A DNA stretch of 63,123 nt. Source: Acetobacteraceae bacterium (GTDB lineage: Bacteria > Pseudomonadota > Alphaproteobacteria > Acetobacterales > Acetobacteraceae). Position 1 is the first letter of the stretch. Each line of letters begins with the position of its first letter. The notes beneath the pieces were generated by a model, which searched no databases, was not told the origin of the DNA, and saw only the letters and a list, made by a program, of their open reading frames with translations. The DNA lies in contig DATNEJ010000019.1 in NCBI GenBank assembly GCA_035606775.1, positions 1 to 63,123 on the forward strand. Reading direction: 5' to 3'. Position numbers and translations under genes: made by a program. Shown here piece by piece: positions 39,045-46,960 of this stretch.

Positions 39045-39337
39045 GCGGGGGTATCCTGTTCCGGGCGCCTGACGTCACGTGTGCCCGGGTCCGCCGGTAG
39101 CTCTCGTGACCCGCGATGCCGGGACCCGCCCGATAGGAAGGCCGAGCGTCCGGAAGGCGGGGCGTGATCCAATCGGCGGGGGGCTAGGGTGTCAATCCTG
39201 TTGCCGGCTTCGCACGGCGATTTCGGCGATGTCGGGTTGAAGCCTTGGACCCGACTGCCCCTGGCGACCCCTGGCCGGCGCTCCCTGCATTCGAGGAGCC
39301 CGATTCGCGACTCGACTCCCGTCGCCGTCGATTCTAT

Positions 39338-39352
39338 GTTCTATATATGTTC
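39338..39352 (+). promoter_or_regulatory. LexA (SOS) box, alphaproteobacterial type
   Basis: GTTC-TATATAT-GTTC = GTTC-N7-GTTC direct repeat at the start of imuA. Confidence 0.88.
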
Positions 39353-40180
39353 TCAATTTCCGCAACCCCATTGCCCGGTTCGCCGAAAGCCGGGCAGGCC
39401 GAGGTGAGGCTGCGCGATCTGCGGGATCGCATCGCCGGCATCGAACGCGCCGGCCGGCGCGTCGGCGGAGCCAGGTCCATCCCCTTCGCCGTTCCGGCCA
39501 TCGACAGCGTCCTGCCCGATTCCGGCCTGGCAGTCGGGGCGTTGCACGAAATGGCAAGCGGAGGCGCGGACACCGCCGAAGGTTCGGCCGCCGCCCTTTT
39601 CGTGGCCGGCATCCTGACCCGCATGGAAGGGTCCGTGCTCTGGGCCATGGAGCACGGCGACCTGTTCGCTCCGGGCCTCGCCGGTGCCGGCCTGCATTCC
39701 GATCGTGTGGTGTTCGTCGAGGCTGACCGGCATGTCCTGTCAGTCATGGAAGAAGGGCTGCGTCATCCCGGGCTTGCCGCGGTCGTCGGTGAGATCACCG
39801 GCCGCCTGACCCTGGTCGCCTCACGCCGCCTGCAACTGGCCGCCGAGGCGACAGGCACACTGGCCATGGCGCTTCGCCGCAGTCCCAGGTTCGACGACCC
39901 GGTTTTGCGGGAACCGACCGCCGCCGTCACGCGCTGGCGGGTAGCGCCGCTCCCCTCGCCGCCTCCCTTGCCGCATGCGCCGGAAACGCCAGGGCTGGGA
40001 CGGGCGCGCTGGCAGCTTGATCTCGTTCGGTGCCGCGGCGGCCAGCCGGGGTCCTGGATTGTGGAGGCGTGCGATGCGACGGGTGGTCTCGCTCTGGTTG
40101 CCGACATGGCCGACAGACCAGATCAGGAAGCGGGACGCCGCACCGGCGTTGGACATGCCGCTGGTCACATCGCTGCATGA
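39347..40180 (+). CDS. imuA: ImuA damage-inducible mutagenesis protein (RecA-like)
   Basis: LRDRIAGIE, GLAVGALHE, DLFAPGLA..GL, MEEGLRHPGLAAVVGE, ASRRLQLAAE, TAAVTRWR; first gene of cassette; start codon uncertain. Confidence 0.88.
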   Translation: MFSISATPLPGSPKAGQAEVRLRDLRDRIAGIERAGRRVGGARSIPFAVPAIDSVLPDSGLAVGALHEMASGGADTAEGSAAALFVAGILTRMEGSVLWAMEHGDLFAPGLAGAGLHSDRVVFVEADRHVLSVMEEGLRHPGLAAVVGEITGRLTLVASRRLQLAAEATGTLAMALRRSPRFDDPVLREPTAAVTRWRVAPLPSPPPLPHAPETPGLGRARWQLDLVRCRGGQPGSWIVEACDATGGLALVADMADRPDQEAGRRTGVGHAAGHIAA

Positions 40181-41591
40181 TGGTCGCCGTCGGGTCATCG
40201 CCGCGGTGGACTCAGCGGCAGAAGCTGCGGGGCTGTACCCCGGCATGGACCTGGCACAGGCGAAAATCCTGATTCCCGGCCTGGCAGTCCACGAAGCCAC
40301 CCCGGCGCTCGATGAGGCCGCCCTGCAGCGGCTGACCGAGTGGTGCCTGCGTTATGCGCCGCTGGTCTCCGCCGCTCCGCCCGACGGGGTGTGGATCGAC
40401 ATCACCGGCACCGCGCATCTGCATGACGGGGAAAAGGCTCTGCTGCATGGCCTGGTCGCCCGCCTCGCCATCCACGGCGTCACCGCCCGTGCCGCCATTG
40501 CCGACACACCTGGCGCAGCCCATGCCCTGGCCCGGTTCCGGATGCGTGACGCAACGGTCGCGGCATCCGGAGAGACCGCCGCCGCCATCGCATCATTGCC
40601 GATCGAGGCGCTGCGCCTGACACCGGACATCCTCAGCGGACTGCGGCTGCTGGGTTTCGAGCAGGTGGGAAAGCTGGCCGCGACCCCACGCGCGCCCCTG
40701 GTCCGCCGCTTCGGTCCGCTGCTCTCCCTGCGGCTGGATCAGGCTTCGGGGGCAGTCTTCGAGCCGATCGTTCCGATTTTCCCGCCCGCCCTGGTGCAGG
40801 CGAGACTGACCTTCGTCGATCCGTTGATGACGGCCGAGTCCTTCCTTGCCGTCATTGACCGCCTGGCCGGCATGACCTGCACCGACCTGGAAAAAGCCGG
40901 CCAGGGCGCGCGCCGGCTGGATCTGCTGTTCGAGCGCGTCGATGGAACCATCCAGGCTGTTCGCGTCGGCACCGCCCGCGCATCGCGCAACAGCCGGCAC
41001 CTGGCACGCATGCTGGCCGAAAAGATCGAACTCATCGATCCGGGGCTTGGTGTGGAGGCCATGCGGCTGATCGTGTCGCTTGCCGATCCGCTGGCCTATG
41101 TCCAGGACGCCGTGCACCTGACGCAGGACGATCCCCCGACAAAGGATCTGGCACCGCTAATAGACCGGCTCGCCAATCGCCTCGGTGCTCGTCGGGTTTT
41201 CCGCGATATCCCGGTGGAGAGCGACGTGCCGGAGCGTTCCGTCCGCCGCGTGCCCGCCCTCGCGCCCCGTCGCGGAACCAAATGGCCGGCGGAGCTGCCG
41301 CGGCCGGTACGTCTGCTCGACCCGCCTCAGCCGGTGGATACCATGGCACTGCTGCCGGATTACCCACCGGTCGCCTTCACCTGGCGCCGCGTCCGCCATC
41401 GCATCAGGCGCGCAGACGGGCCGGAACGCATCGCCGGCGAATGGTGGCGCCATGATGCGGAAATGCGATTGGTCCGCGACTACTTCCGTCTGGAAGACGA
41501 GGACGGCCGCCGCTTCTGGCTGTTTCGCCGCGGCGATGGCGCCGACACCGCGACCGGCGACATGCGCTGGTTCCTGCACGGGTTCTTCTGA
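40074..41591 (+). CDS. imuB: ImuB, inactive Y-family DNA polymerase
   Basis: SD GGAGG; [70 protein letters not shown]. Confidence 0.92.
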
Positions 41592-41596
41592 AAACC

Positions 41597-44500
41597 ATGA
41601 AGGACCCTGCCGCCTATGTCGAACTGCAGGTCACCACCAATTACTCGTTCCTGCGTGGTGCCTCGCATGTCGAGGAACTGCTCGCCCAGGCCGCTCTCCT
41701 CGGCATGCCCGCTCTCGCCGTCACCGACCGCAATTCCCTGGCCGGCATCGTCCGGGCGCATCAGCGCGCCCAGGAAGCAGGTGTGCGGCTGATCGTCGGC
41801 TGCCGCCTGGACCTGACGGAGGGCTTGTCGGTCCTGGCCTACCCGACCGATCGGCCGGCCTATTCGCGGCTGACCCGCCTGCTCACCATCGGCAAGGGAC
41901 GCGCCGGCAAAGGCGCCTGCGATCTCGGCTGGGACGATCTTGTGCAACACAATGACGGGTTGATCGCCATTCTGTGCACTGGGATCACGGCGGAAAGCCT
42001 GCAAAGGCTGCGCGCCGATTTCGGCGACCGGGGCTACGCCGCCCTGACCCCGCGCCGCCGCCCGGATGACGCTGTTCGTCTTCGCACCACCGCCGATCTG
42101 GCCCAGGTGGCGCGCGTCCCCACCGTCGCGACCAACGACGTTCTCTACCACGTGCCGGAACGCCGTATCCTGCAGGACGTCCTCACCTGCATCCGTGAAG
42201 GCTGCACCATCGATGAGGCCGGCTTCCGGCGTGAACGCTCGGTCGATCGCCATCTGCTTCCGCCCGATGAGGCGGCCCGCCTGTTTTCCAGGCATGCGGA
42301 TGCCGTCGCCCGCACGCAGGAGATCGCCGATCGCTGCCGGTTCTCATTGGACGAACTGCGCTACCAGTACCCGCACGAGACCAGGATTCCCGGTCTGACC
42401 GCACAGCAGACACTGGAACGCCTGACATGGGAGGGAGCTGCGCATCGCTACCCCGGCACCGTGCCGGAAAATGTCGTGACGCAGCTTCGGCATGAACTCG
42501 GACTGATCGACCAACTGGGCTACGCACCCTATTTCCTGACAGTCCACAACATCGTCCGCTTCTCCGAGTCCCAGGGCATCCTCTGCCAGGGCCGCGGTTC
42601 CGCTGCCAACTCCGCCGTCTGCTACGTGCTCCGCATTACCGCCATCGATCCGGTTCGCAGCGGCCTGCTGTTCGAGCGCTTCATCAGCGCCGACCGCAAG
42701 GAACCGCCCGACATCGACGTCGATTTCGAGCATGAACGGCGCGAGGACGTCATTCAGTGGATCTACAAAACCTATGGAGCCCAGCGCGCGGCGCTGTGCG
42801 CCACTGTCATCCGCTATCGCAGCCGCGGCGCGGTCCGCGATGTCGGCAAGGCGCTCGGCCTGACGGATGACGTGACCGGCGCACTCGCCTCACAAGCTTC
42901 GGGCTGGAGCCAGGAAGGAGTCGCCGAGGAAGACGCCGCTGCCCTGAACTTCAATATGCAGGATCGCCGCCTGCGCCTGACCCTGGAACTCACCCGCCAA
43001 CTGATCGGCTTTCCGCGCCATCTGTCGCAGCATCCGGGCGGCTTCGTGCTGACCGAGGACCGCCTGGATGAGCTTGTGCCGATCGAGCCTGCTCGCATGG
43101 CGGACCGGCAGGTCATCGAGTGGGATAAGGACGATATCGACGCCTTGCGTTTCATGAAGGTCGATGTCCTTGGCCTTGGTATGCTGGGCTGCATGCGCCG
43201 CGCGTTCAACCTTCTGGCGGAACATCGCGCCCTTGACCTGAACCTCGCCACCATTCCGGCCGAGGATCCGGCAACCTATGACATGATCTGCAAGGCCGAC
43301 ACGCTGGGAACATTCCAGATCGAATCGCGTGCGCAGATGTCTATGCTGCCGCGGCTGAAACCGCGCCTCTTCTATGACCTCGTCATTCAGATCGCGATCG
43401 TGCGCCCCGGGCCGATCCAGGGCGACATGGTGCATCCCTATCTGCGCCGGCGCGAAAAACTGGACCCTGTCACCTATCCCCAACCTGAACTGCGTAAGGT
43501 ACTCGGCAAGACCCTGGGTGTGCCGCTGTTCCAGGAACAGGCGATGCAGGTTGCCATTGTCTGCGCCGGCTTTACGCCGAGCGAGGCAGATGCACTTCGT
43601 CGCAGCATGGCGACGTTCAAGGCCACCGGCGGCGTCTCGCATTTCCGGGAAAAGCTGATCGCGGGGATGACCAGGCGGGGTTACGATCAGCAGGTCGCAA
43701 GCAGGATCGTCTCGCAGATTGAAGGCTTCGGCAGCTACGGTTTCCCCGAAAGCCATGCTGCCAGCTTCGCATTGATCGCCTATGCCTCGGCCTGGATAAA
43801 ATGCCATCACCCGGACGTGTTCTGCTGCGCGCTTCTGAACGCGCAGCCGATGGGTTTCTACGCGCCCGCGCAGATCGTGCGCGATGCACGTGAACATGGT
43901 GTCGAGGTTCGGCCGGTATCGGTGAACTACTCGGTGTGGGACTGCACGCTTGAACCGTCCGACGGACCGATGCTTGCCGTGCGACTGGGTTTTCGCATGG
44001 TGAAAGGTTTGGCGGAGACACACGCCAAAAAACTGATCGACAACCGAGGGACAGGCTACCGGTCGGTCAGAAGCCTGTGGCAGCGGGTTGCGGTGCCGGT
44101 TGCCGCACTGGAGCGTCTGGCGGAGGCGGATGCGTTCGGGTCTCTCGGAATGATACCAGCAGCCTGCAGGGCTGACTGGTATGCGCGCAGGGTTGCCCAG
44201 GGGGTAAGGTTCGCGGCTGCGCGCGAAATCAATGACATACCAGCGGCCCGACAATCGACCGACGAATCAAGATTGCGGGCCGCTGGTATGACGCGCCGCG
44301 AAGCCCTATGGGCGATCCGCGGCCTGTCGGATTTGCGGCTGCCGCTGTTCGATGCAGGCGCGCCATCCGACGGCGATGAGAATGACGGCGAGGCCTCCGT
44401 CAATCTGGCCCCCATGACTGCCGGCCGCGAAGTCGTGGAAGACTATCGCAGTGTCCGGCTCAGTCTGCGGCAGCATCCGGTTTCCTTCCTGCGGGGCGAT

Positions 44501-44983
44501 CTCGACGCACAGCGCATCGTCCGTTGTGCCGATCTGGCGCGGATGGACGACGGCATGCGCCTCTCCGTCGCCGGCATCGTACTGGTGCGACAGAGGCCCG
44601 GTAGCGCCCGAGGTGTGCTGTTCGTCACCATCGAGGATGAGACCGGCCATGCCAATCTGATCGTCTGGTCATCGGTGTTCGAGACGCAGCGCCGCCTTGT
44701 CCTGTCAGCGCGAATGCTGGCCTGTCGCGGCAGGCTTCAGCGGGAGAGCAACGTCATTCACGTTATCGCCGAACATCTGACCGATCTGTCCGGGCTTCTG
44801 CAGAGTGTCGAGCAGAGGGGTCCAGACTCTTCCATGGCCGGCAACCGCAGCGATGCCGTGCAGCGTGCCGGCAACGCAGATCATGGCCAGAGATTCGGAG
44901 CGCGCCACGTCCGCGTCGACAGACAGGCGGAGCACGAGAGCATGTTGCGCGGAATCAAGGTATCGACGCGCGACTTCCGGTAG
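41597..44983 (+). CDS. dnaE2: Error-prone DNA polymerase DnaE2 (ImuC), carrying a 46-aa in-frame insertion
   Basis: [78 protein letters not shown], terminal STRDFR. Confidence 0.96.
44153..44290. mobile_element. 138-bp palindromic MITE/RPE-like element inserted in frame in dnaE2
   Basis: Terminal inverted repeat ATACCAGCAGCC / GGCCGCTGGTAT (11 of 12), three internal hairpins, ATGA present at both junctions (44150-53, 44288-91); removing it restores the canonical-looking ...[20 protein letters not shown]. Confidence 0.75.
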
Positions 44984-45028: not shown

Positions 45029-45838
45029 TCACTGGCCGGCCATCCGGAATCCAACATCCGAAGGAGTCATTTTCTCCAACTGGTTCAGCGGCTTGCCCAG
45101 GTATTGTTCCAGAAGTTCTCCCGCGGGGCCATCGCCCTGCACGCGTCCCTGGTCCAGCCAGAGTGCGCGCGTGCACCATTTCTGTATGATATCTGCCTGG
45201 TGGCTGGAGAGGACCAGGATTTCCGCACCGCGGACCATTGCCTCCAGCCGATGGCGCGCCTTTTCCATGAATGTCGCGTCACCCGCCAGGAACCACTCAT
45301 CCATGAGCAGGATCTGCGGCTTGATTGCGGTCGCCAGCGCAAAGCCAAGCCGTATGACCATACCGGCGGAGTAGATGCGCACGGGGAGGTCGATGAAATC
45401 GGCCAGTTCGGCGAATTCGGCCACGTCTTCCTCAAGACGCGGCAGCATGGAGCGGGGCAGACCATTATAGAGGCCGCGCAGAAGTATATTCTCCCGCCCG
45501 GTCAGCTCCATGTTCATTCCCAGGCTCGGGTCCAGCAATGCGTTCAGGCTTCCCTGCACGCGCACCCGCCCGGTGACCGGTTCATAGATTCCCGCCAGCA
45601 CACGCAGCAACGTCGTCTTGCCTGCGCCATTCGGTCCGATCAGGCCAAGGCGATCACCGCTGTTCAAGGTCAGGTTGATATCGCGCAGCGCCTGGACCAC
45701 CACACGATGCTGCTGGTCCTGCCCCAGCCGCCCCGACGCAGCGGCCACAACCAGCTTTTTCAGGCTGCGGGAGCTGCCGTGATACAAAGGAAAGAGGACG
45801 GACACGTCCTGCACGTCGATGCGCGCATGATGGCTCAT
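45029..45838 (-). CDS. wzt: Polysaccharide/polyol-phosphate ABC exporter ATP-binding subunit (Wzt-like)
   Basis: ALRDINL, GPNGAGKTTLL, LTGRENI, YSAGM..RLGFA, LLMDEW, SSH; no C-terminal carbohydrate-binding domain. Confidence 0.88.
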   Translation of the reverse strand: MSHHARIDVQDVSVLFPLYHGSSRSLKKLVVAAASGRLGQDQQHRVVVQALRDINLTLNSGDRLGLIGPNGAGKTTLLRVLAGIYEPVTGRVRVQGSLNALLDPSLGMNMELTGRENILLRGLYNGLPRSMLPRLEEDVAEFAELADFIDLPVRIYSAGMVIRLGFALATAIKPQILLMDEWFLAGDATFMEKARHRLEAMVRGAEILVLSSHQADIIQKWCTRALWLDQGRVQGDGPAGELLEQYLGKPLNQLEKMTPSDVGFRMAGQ

Positions 45839-45841
45839 TCT

Positions 45842-46696
45842 CTAAATCCAGAACGTGATTCGGCCGCGCGCACGGACAAAGAACGCCCAGGCAATGCTGC
45901 ACAAGGCCAGGCTATAGACCCCGGCGCCGATCCAGGTCGCGGCCGACGCATTTTGTCCAAGCAGCGGGCCGCGCACGATTTCAATCAGGTCGTAGAACGG
46001 ATTGAACGGCAGCGTGCTGGCAGCCTTGCCGAGCTGCTCCGGCTTCCAGATGACCGGTGTGACGAAAAAGGCGATCTGCATCACGCTGTTCACAATCGGC
46101 AGGATGTCCCGGAACCGCGCGCAGAACGCCCCCAGCAGCAGCGTCAATAAAAGCGCATCGACAATCCAGACCAGCAGTCCCGGCATGATCATCAGCCAGT
46201 TCCAGCTCGGCCACTGCGAAAACACCACGAAGACGACCACGATCACCAGAATATTGTGACCCAGCACCATCACGTTGCGGATCAGGGTCCGCAGAGCAAA
46301 CACGAAGAACGGCATGCGCACGGACCGGACCACGGCTTCCGCCTCGGTGAACGCACCGCACGATTCCGACACCATCGACGCCAGGAATGCCCACAACACC
46401 TGCGACAGCGCGAGAAATGGCAGGTAGTCGTGAACGTCCATGTGAAACAGCGTGGCGTACAGAACGCCGAGTGCCGCCACCATGACACCGGTGGAGATCG
46501 TGAGCCAGAACGGGCCAAGCATCGAGCCGCGATAGCGCAACCTGATGTCCAGCCAGCCTAGCGCCCAGGCGAGGCGCCAGAGACGCAGCCCCGCCTTGAC
46601 GTCTTCGACCGCCAGCCGCAGGCGCGTGCCGATCGACATGGCGGCGTGCAGGTCCAGCACCGCGCCCTTGGCGGCGAGAGTAACCGTGTTGCTCAT
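45842..46696 (-). CDS. wzm: ABC-2 type polysaccharide exporter permease (Wzm-like)
   Basis: DIRLRYRGSMLGPFW, ARFRDI, FFVTPVIW, NPFY...IVRGPLLG. Confidence 0.88.
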   Translation of the reverse strand: MSNTVTLAAKGAVLDLHAAMSIGTRLRLAVEDVKAGLRLWRLAWALGWLDIRLRYRGSMLGPFWLTISTGVMVAALGVLYATLFHMDVHDYLPFLALSQVLWAFLASMVSESCGAFTEAEAVVRSVRMPFFVFALRTLIRNVMVLGHNILVIVVVFVVFSQWPSWNWLMIMPGLLVWIVDALLLTLLLGAFCARFRDILPIVNSVMQIAFFVTPVIWKPEQLGKAASTLPFNPFYDLIEIVRGPLLGQNASAATWIGAGVYSLALCSIAWAFFVRARGRITFWI

Positions 46697-46960
46697 GAGC
46701 AGCAGGGCGATAGACCATCGGCTCGCGGGCAGCAACCGGTTCGCCGGCCCGAGAGGCCCAGCAGGCGCCTGCTGCCCGGACGCTAAATTCCCGGCCGAGA
46801 TGACTTGCAAGAAAGACTGATTTGGGTTAGGGGGTTAGGAACCTTTCCTGACTGCCTACCTGAGCGGTTGCCGGTAACGGTAGCCGCGTTCGTTGGTTTT
46901 AGCGGACCGCATCGTCATGCGGGACCGTGGGAGGCCGATGTCCGAGACGGAGGAAACCGG

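What the first reader, a model, noticed from the sequence alone, without database searches (positions are those of the whole stretch)
44150..44291. Three-hairpin palindromic element inserted in frame inside the DnaE2 polymerase gene
Seen: exactly 138 bp (46 codons, residues 853-898, IPAACRAD...RLRAAGM) between GSLGM and TRREALW. It has a terminal inverted repeat (ATACCAGCAGCC / GGCCGCTGGTAT), hairpin 1 (ATACCAG-CAGCC 44153-64 with GGCTG-A-CTGGTAT 44170-82), hairpin 2 (GCGCGCAG 44183-90 with CTGCGCGC 44217-24), hairpin 3 (perfect 15-bp CATACCAGCGGCCCG 44236-50 with 44276-90, plus CAATC/GATTG), and ATGA at both junctions. Known: DnaE2 normally runs from DAFxSLG directly into xRRxALW; Rickettsia palindromic elements are the precedent for repeats entering ORFs in frame. 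Inference: a small mobile repeat family, built from two ATACCAG...CTGGTAT units, that creates new protein sequence or modulates the SOS mutasome mRNA. Not an intein. Best candidate for an undescribed system in this window.
Basis: partly seen in the sequence, partly recalled or inferred. Interest (0 to 1): 0.85.

Follow-up and report, generated by a model that had tools for sequence, protein, structure and literature searches.

The report
IS630-type mini-transposon inside SOS polymerase gene
A 135-base repeat with over 50 copies in this bacterium's genome, likely moved by IS630-family transposases whose ends it shares, sits in frame in a loop of the error-prone polymerase DnaE2, where it is probably tolerated rather than useful.

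Summary
The insert is a 135-bp element plus a duplicated 3-bp target (TGA), +138 bp in all; 22 of 26 orthologues lack it. The genome holds 53 full copies and 7 single-hairpin copies. They avoid genes (5 of 60 inside, against 78% of target sites) and 16 sit on stop codons. Relatives occur in 49 of 150 genomes of the family. Both ends read TACCA-N14-TGAC and are flanked by TNA, as in a group of IS630-family insertion sequences (ISAli3, ISAzs14, and a defective copy in this genome). It is therefore a MITE, likely mobilised in trans. It differs from described IS630 MITEs in having a TNA rather than a TA duplication and three local, co-varying hairpins. The dnaE2 copy likely survived because its length is 3n, the frame is open and the loop is tolerant. 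Other dnaE2 genes of the genus often carry unrelated inserts (22 of 44, against 0 of 20 dnaE1), and REP inserts in dnaE2 were published in 2013. No evidence for an adaptive role was found. It is an apparently undescribed repeat family of a known kind, not a new system.

The parts
44151..44153 (+). Left copy of the target-site duplication (TGA, of the TNA type)
   Evidence: left and right triplets identical in 41 of 53 full copies
44154..44288 (+). 135-bp MITE, long form (the 123-bp short form is commoner)
44154..44177 (+). Left end: terminal TACCA and inner TGAC box at positions 20-23, the layout of the IS630-group ends
44153..44182 (+). Hairpin 1 (left end folded on a short inverted copy)
44183..44224 (+). 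Hairpin 2, central, shared with two other subfamilies in the genome; 12 bp longer in the long form
44227..44239 (+). IHF-like box, one mismatch to the consensus WATCAANNNNTTR (consensus recalled; binding untested)
   Evidence: AATCAATGAGATA in 33 of 53 copies
44236..44290 (+). Hairpin 3; its 3' arm is the right end. It also occurs alone (7 copies)
44265..44288 (-). Right end read from outside: TACCA-N14-TGAT; this copy carries a change in the inner box (family TGAC) at 44266
44289..44291 (+). Right copy of the target-site duplication (TGA)
41597..44983 (+). Host gene dnaE2 (error-prone polymerase), open frame; insert falls right after the HhH domain (residues 768-851) and before the OB fold (990-1064)
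   Evidence: NCBIfam PRK05672 1373.6 bits, cut-off 939; Pfam
39975..41591 (+). imuB-like ORF (context; true start probably near 40155)
   Evidence: weak Pol IV family hits below cut-off; position upstream of dnaE2; start from my gene caller
39245..40180 (+). imuA-like ORF (context)
   Evidence: NF033429 42.9 bits, below the cut-off of 150

Best explanation
The insert is one copy of a multicopy, non-coding miniature transposon (MITE) that shares its end motifs and TNA target duplication with a group of IS630-family insertion sequences, was likely moved by their transposase acting in trans, and is probably a tolerated passenger in dnaE2. Shown: copy number, clean empty site in orthologues, TNA duplication, shared two-part ends, avoidance of genes. 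Inferred: the DDE transposase binds the TACCA and TGAC boxes at both ends, cuts the unit out and inserts it at T-N-A; repair duplicates the three bases. Inferred: selection removes nearly all hits inside genes, leaving intergenic copies and copies on TGA/TAA stop codons, where the duplication keeps the stop. Inferred: this copy survived because 135+3 is 46 codons, that frame is open in the family consensus, the site is a loop after the HhH domain, and dnaE2 is under relaxed constraint.
For: Copies: 53 full-length and 7 lone hairpin-3 copies among 91 non-overlapping hits. Duplication: middle base identical on both sides in 41 of 47 copies with TNA at both ends, against a shuffle mean of 17.5 and maximum of 29 in 10,000; identical triplets in 18 of 21 copies from other genera. 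Partner: 18 complete IS630-family elements (1171-1235 bp) from the genus have left consensus TACCA..TGACTC, 27 right ends have TACCA..TTGAC, with identical TNA flanks in 12 of 18. ISAli3 and ISAzs14 show the same ends and TTA/TTA, TCA/TCA flanks. The window's ends match an IS end at 18 and 19 of 25 positions; 0.9-1.7% of 2000 random TACC-starting 25-mers do as well. The genome has its own copy: NCBIfam IS630 model over cut-off, right end on C213 and a probable left end on C566, both with TGA flanks. Location: 5 of 60 copies in confidently called genes against 78% of 140,694 TNA sites, p 9e-31; 16 of 55 others on stop codons against 10% expected. Tolerant site: unrelated in-frame inserts in the same loop in 3 of 28 orthologues and in a second loop in 9 of 29; inserts of 45 nt or more in 22 of 44 dnaE2 against 0 of 20 dnaE1. 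Catalytic-region and C-terminal motifs are present (their roles recalled). In the AlphaFold model the HhH region scores above 90 and the insert 36-54.
Against: Transposition was not observed and no empty allele of this strain was found. The genome's own transposase copy lacks about 90 residues and is split over two contigs, so no intact mobiliser is assembled here (92% complete). The 14 bases between the boxes differ between MITE and IS. The IS ends used were picked by a pattern containing both boxes, so part of the match is built in. 12 of 53 copies and 6 of 18 IS have unequal flanks (later mutation, recombination or chimeric assembly; not resolved). The co-varying local hairpins are not explained by DDE end recognition. 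IS and MITE co-occur only weakly: 9 both, 1 MITE only, 6 IS only, 8 neither of 24, Fisher p 0.03, with my thresholds and non-independent kin. Low model confidence is expected wherever the alignment has no rows. Activity of the enlarged DnaE2 is untested.
Confidence: 0.8

Rival explanations
1. Same origin, but the insert has crippled DnaE2 and the gene is on its way to being lost.
For: 46 residues sit directly behind the DNA-binding HhH domain. Several dnaE2 genes of the genus show stops or frame breaks (G009, G011, G337, G340, G367), so loss appears tolerated.
Against: The ORF and the imuA/imuB-like ORFs are open, and motifs are intact. The copy differs at 6 of 113 shared positions from the short-form consensus, so it is not brand new, yet the gene has no stop. 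Other species keep open frames with 20-66 extra residues in the same loop.
Confidence: 0.12
2. The insert was kept because it tunes the SOS mutasome, through the peptide or through mRNA hairpins (first reader; also the speculation of De Gregorio et al. 2013 for REPs in repair genes).
For: dnaE2 collects inserts again and again while dnaE1 has none (22 of 44 against 0 of 20). PMC3733652 reports REPs in four dnaE2 genes and in other repair genes. The RNA structure is very stable.
Against: The inserts are unrelated in sequence, length and site, as expected for tolerance in a dispensable gene. This insert is in none of the orthologues scored. No Pfam family matches the peptide. The frame is open in the family consensus anyway (3 of 6 frames).
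Confidence: 0.07
3. The repeat is REP/REPIN-like and is moved as single-stranded hairpins by an HUH (RAYT-type) transposase; the likeness to IS630 ends is incidental.
For: The three local hairpins co-vary (37 both-side changes against 12.5 shuffled), more than end-to-end pairing does (7 against 3.4).
Against: There is a variable 3-bp duplication. No Y1_Tnp gene was found in this genome (92% complete). Both end boxes and their spacing match IS630 elements with the same target. No recurring neighbour gene appeared around the copies clustered.
Confidence: 0.05
4. The repeat was placed in dnaE2 by mis-assembly.
For: Fragmented assembly (567 contigs); some copies share one flank and differ in the other; the left junction is bridged by fewer than 31 element bases.
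Against: The right junction is bridged in four further runs; both junctions carry the same TGA; the frame is restored exactly; no empty form at matching depth was listed.
Confidence: 0.02

Closest known systems
IS630-family insertion sequences of the ISAli3 / ISAzs14 group (NCBIfam NF033545)
   Same: Ends TACCA-N14-TGAC on both sides and TNA flanks; ISAli3's first 10 bases equal the first 10 of the element's right end read from outside.
   Different: The element has no transposase, is 123-135 bp instead of about 1.17-1.19 kb, and folds each end into its own hairpin.
IS630-linked MITEs such as RUP of S. pneumoniae; also Correia/NEMIS (PMC2229807, passages read)
   Same: Small, non-autonomous, ends like those of an IS630 element (RUP), target duplication, mostly intergenic; an IHF-like box as in the long Correia form.
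   Different: These have TA at their termini and one end-to-end stem; this family has a 3-bp TNA duplication and three local hairpins.
CIR repeats of Caulobacter/Brucella (Chen and Shapiro 2003, known only through PMC2229807 passages)
   Same: Alphaproteobacterial, about 110-135 bp, hairpin arms joined by a linker, GANTC sites in 52 of 53 copies.
   Different: CIRs are reported to have stops in all six frames, no intragenic copies and no known mobiliser. This family has three open frames, an intragenic copy, a third hairpin and a candidate transposase. Sequences could not be compared.
Rickettsia palindromic elements (RPE; PMC2229807 and PMC10969869, passages read)
   Same: A palindromic repeat of similar size fused in frame inside a conserved protein.
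   Different: Nearly half of RPEs lie in ORFs; here one clean internal in-frame copy among 60. No RPE protein model was hit.
GTAG/CGTC REPs inside dnaE2 (PMC3733652, passages and supplement 3 rows read)
   Same: Same host gene; in-frame repeat-coded peptides of 29-81 residues in dnaE2 of four species. CGTC-like inserts occur in dnaE2 of sister genomes.
   Different: A different repeat class (no GTAG/CGTC tag; has IS-like ends and a duplication) and a different position in the protein.

Membership tests
Bacterial MITE | Short, multicopy, no transposase gene | tested here: met
   123-135 bp, 53 full copies; no family match for the peptide
Bacterial MITE | Terminal inverted repeats | tested here: met
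   two-part ends conserved across genera; imperfect beyond ATACC
Bacterial MITE | Target-site duplication, filled and empty sites | tested here: met
   41 of 47 against 17.5 shuffled; empty site in 22 of 26 orthologues
Bacterial MITE | Ends shared with an autonomous IS | tested here: met
Bacterial MITE | Mobilisation in trans by that transposase | not testable with these tools
   needs a transposition assay; co-occurrence weak
Classical IS630/Tc1 MITE (RUP type) | TA dinucleotide duplication | tested here: not met
   the duplicated unit is TNA; the reconstructed empty dnaE2 site has no TA at the junction
CIR repeats | Hairpin arms joined by a linker, with GANTC in a loop | tested here: met
   an extra central hairpin is present
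CIR repeats | Stops in all six frames, strictly intergenic | tested here: not met
   3 of 6 frames open; copy inside dnaE2
CIR repeats | Sequence likeness to CIR1-4 | not testable with these tools
   paper not held; model R1 found nothing in a class-wide draw, only 21 candidates scored per genome
RPE | Frequent in-frame insertion in ORFs | tested here: not met
   5 of 60 in genes, one clean internal in-frame
REP/REPIN with RAYT | GTAG/CGTC tag and an associated Y1 transposase | tested here: not met
   no tag in the sequence; PF01797 not found in this 92% complete genome
Intein or Rfam RNA | Hint domain or covariance-model match | tested here: not met
   no Pfam hit to the 46 residues; only chance-level Rfam hits

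The most novel reading that the evidence does not exclude
The two-arm hairpin repeats of alphaproteobacteria, whose mobility is unexplained (CIR type), are MITEs of distinct IS630 subgroups, each with its own target (TNA here, CTAG in a sister genome). Their ends are folded into hairpins kept by selection on the RNA, which lets them settle on stop codons in the sense orientation. DnaE2's two loops are a recurrent sink for such elements, and the inserts shift the activity of the SOS mutasome.
Probability: 0.2. Interest if true: 0.65.

Novelty: new variant of a known kind. Interest (0 to 1): 0.37.

Why it matters
It names a candidate mobiliser, with matching ends and target, for a family-wide hairpin repeat built like the CIR elements, whose mobility reviews call unknown. 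That makes a direct transposition test possible. It also gives natural dnaE2 alleles with and without inserts in two loops, with dnaE1 as a control, to test the 2013 speculation that repeats in repair genes change mutation rates. If the insert is neutral, as I expect, the value is modest: an undescribed MITE family and a map of tolerant loops in DnaE2.

Tried and rejected
Rfam gave only chance hits; the weak Brucella sRNA hit (E 0.08) vanished. The single-sequence AlphaFold model was useless (mean pLDDT 33.8). Selection for lengths divisible by three was rejected: 7 of 22 in other genera (L114 left out as an incomplete match). A long transposase-carrying form with the element's own ends was not found: the one inverted pair of repeats 1.6-1.7 kb apart (C83) encloses an unrelated gene. 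No recurring neighbour gene was found. The IS5-type genes and the second IS630 gene (C90) have other ends, and the single GIY-YIG hit lies in a 673-residue frame and was not examined further. GANTC is only mildly avoided (O/E 0.85); a CcrM link was not tested further. The RNA run X20 covers the repeat and a piece of dnaE2 but not the junctions, so it says nothing on transcription. Copy C125 first looked like a frameshift in a 909-residue gene; it is a stop-codon insertion mis-scored by my excision and remains among the 5 'genic' copies. Three look-ups of earlier findings returned nothing. Eight literature searches listed no paper on this family or on a TNA duplication by IS630. Chen and Shapiro 2003 was not held and ISfinder could not be consulted, so the TNA target may be recorded there.

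Full report
Observation. The region 44150-44291 is as described. It lies in a 1128-residue ORF that passes the NCBIfam cut-off for error-prone polymerase DnaE2, behind imuA- and imuB-like ORFs that match below cut-off. The three hairpins are the minimum-energy RNA fold, z -7.9. Of 26 orthologous loci scored, 22 have two residues where this gene has 48; the others have 1, 8, 20 and 66 extra residues of other sequence (L029 was cut off and L039, L040 are dnaE1). Contigs of four runs other than the possible source bridge the right junction; the left is entered by 11-29 bases only. These runs may be one campaign.

A repeat family. The genome (4.94 Mb, 65% G+C, 567 contigs) gives 91 non-overlapping hits, 53 full-length: 39 with a 125-base core, 4 with 137, 10 of nearby lengths. 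Seven more are lone third hairpins. Copies are flanked by T-N-A. Among 47 with TNA on both sides the middle base is the same in 41, against 17.5 in shuffles. The element is thus 135 or 123 bp plus a 3-bp duplication; a 1-bp duplication with two more element bases is formally equivalent. Two other subfamilies share the central hairpin, with chimeras and one nested insertion. DNA search finds it in 11 of 24 genomes of the genus and 0 of 16 from other families. A covariance model finds it in 49 of 150 genomes of the family and 0 of 150 drawn across the class, where only 21 candidates per genome were scored. The one exact match of a hairpin-1 pattern in the genome collection is titled Rhodopila sp., so the host is likely an Acetobacteraceae member of that genus (inferred).

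Where copies sit. With a home-made gene caller (4899 genes, 86% coding), 5 of 60 copies fall in confidently called genes, against 78% of TNA sites (p 9e-31). Sixteen of the other 55 are on stop codons, against 10% expected (p 1e-4), 13 of them in the gene's orientation. Of the five, C125 is really a stop-codon insertion, C386 and C454 lie in the last ten codons, C542 at codon 2, and only dnaE2 is a clean internal fusion. Two low-scoring genes (C188, C420) receive stops. Three of six frames are open in the consensus, and lengths in other genera are divisible by three in 7 of 22. The family shows no design for in-frame entry.

The partner. An IS630-family transposase in this genome ends in the same motif and spacing as the element's right end. 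Its relatives, found in 41 of 60 genomes of the genus, gave 27 right ends and 18 complete elements of 1171-1235 bp from the 30 loci fetched. Both ends read TACCA, 14 variable bases, then TGAC at positions 20-23, and TNA flanks are identical in 12 of 18. The element's ends have the same layout in this genome and, more loosely, in 21 other genera. ISAli3, ISAzs14 and an S. meliloti IS630 show the same ends and flanks. Best matches of the window's ends are 18 and 19 of 25, reached by 0.9-1.7% of random TACC-starting words; the IS ends were pattern-selected, which inflates this. The genome's own copy appears split between C566 and C213, has TGA on both sides and lacks about 90 residues. Co-occurrence is weak (p 0.03). 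No Y1 transposase was found.

Structure. Across 15 copies from six genomes the three local helices are 98% paired with 37 both-side changes (12.5 shuffled; slid controls 2 or fewer). End-to-end pairing has 7. Related sequences inflate such counts. Local hairpins are not needed for DDE end recognition (established knowledge). They may reflect selection on transcripts or template-switch repair of near-palindromes; I could not tell these apart. An IHF-like box lies between hairpins 2 and 3 (consensus recalled).

The host site. The insert follows the HhH domain (Pfam 768-851), near E. coli DnaE residue 893 and Taq 952. With a 35-row alignment the model keeps the HhH region above pLDDT 90 and the next helix near 79, and leaves the insert at 36-54; Foldseek returns DnaE structures. 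The same loop holds unrelated inserts in 3 of 28 orthologues, among them two tandem units of a CTAG-flanked repeat with about 40 copies scored in G003. A second loop near residue 787 holds inserts in 9 of 29, several CGTC-REP-like. Over whole genes, 22 of 44 dnaE2 carry inserts of 45 nt or more, and 0 of 20 dnaE1. The 44 were 29 top-scoring loci (12 with inserts) and 15 I chose partly for split matches (10 with inserts); not all inserts are palindromes; the dnaE1 set came mostly from genomes with dnaE2 inserts. Some dnaE2 genes are broken. This copy differs at 6 of 113 positions from the short-form consensus, one in the right TGAC box; one of 27 IS right ends has the same change.

Mechanism. 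Shown: multicopy element, duplication, shared ends, gene avoidance, tolerant loop. Inferred: trans-mobilisation by the IS630-group transposase, loss of most genic insertions, survival here through 3n length, an open frame and relaxed constraint. Confidence 0.8. Rivals: inactivation 0.12, adaptive tuning 0.07, HUH mobilisation 0.05, artefact 0.02 (the first two share the origin and differ in effect).

Literature. PMC3733652 (passages and supplement 3 rows) reports REPs in dnaE2 of four species and speculates on altered mutability. PMC2229807 (passages) describes CIR, RUP with IS630-Spn1 and TA, and RPE. PMC10969869 and PMC3184786 (passages) review MITEs. Chen and Shapiro 2003 was not seen. Eight searches listed nothing on this family; most subscription papers and ISfinder are outside the library.

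Verdict. A real, apparently undescribed MITE family of Acetobacteraceae with an identifiable IS630 partner group and a non-canonical TNA duplication. Its presence in dnaE2 is one more case of a published pattern and is probably neutral. Interest 0.37.

Noticed in passing
L012/L212 (G003 dnaE2); L267: A second repeat family (99 bp, CTAG-flanked, two arms plus an AAAACAAT linker, about 40 copies scored) has three units in frame in G003 dnaE2. An IS630 element of the same genome starts CTAGAGC and ends CTAGACC like the repeat, but the likeness stops after 7 bases.
   Followed up: partly
dnaE2 residue ~787 (window ~43955), orthologues L013-L018, L027, L217-L222: Second insertion hot spot, between DCTLE and AVRLG, with CGTC-REP-like palindromes up to 110 codons, mostly in frame.
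   Followed up: yes
G000:C566:1-170 and C213:1-733 (L144): The genome's IS630-group copy, probably split over two contigs, with an internal deletion of about 90 residues. In an intact relative (L153) the second Asp and the Glu are 32 residues apart, shorter than the 34-35 I recall for the family.
   Followed up: partly
G000:C3:18885-19122; C528:2150-2275; C42:30490-30633: Subfamily B nested inside subfamily A at a TA, and chimeras joining A's first hairpin to the last hairpin of B or C. Subfamily B flanks do not show the TNA duplication.
   Followed up: partly
G000:C420:5367-5491: A copy puts a stop into an ORF that resembles an SOS-response-associated peptidase (resemblance recalled, not searched).
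   Followed up: no
G000, 16 copies on stop codons: 13 lie in the gene's orientation and 3 opposite; this may point to an effect on 3' ends of mRNA or to target choice.
   Followed up: no
L221 (G367 dnaE2): An out-of-frame insert of about 800 bases made of ~21-base tandem repeats at the second hot spot.
   Followed up: no
window 45029-46810: Wzm/Wzt-like polysaccharide ABC transporter genes converge on dnaE2; matches below cut-off.
   Followed up: no
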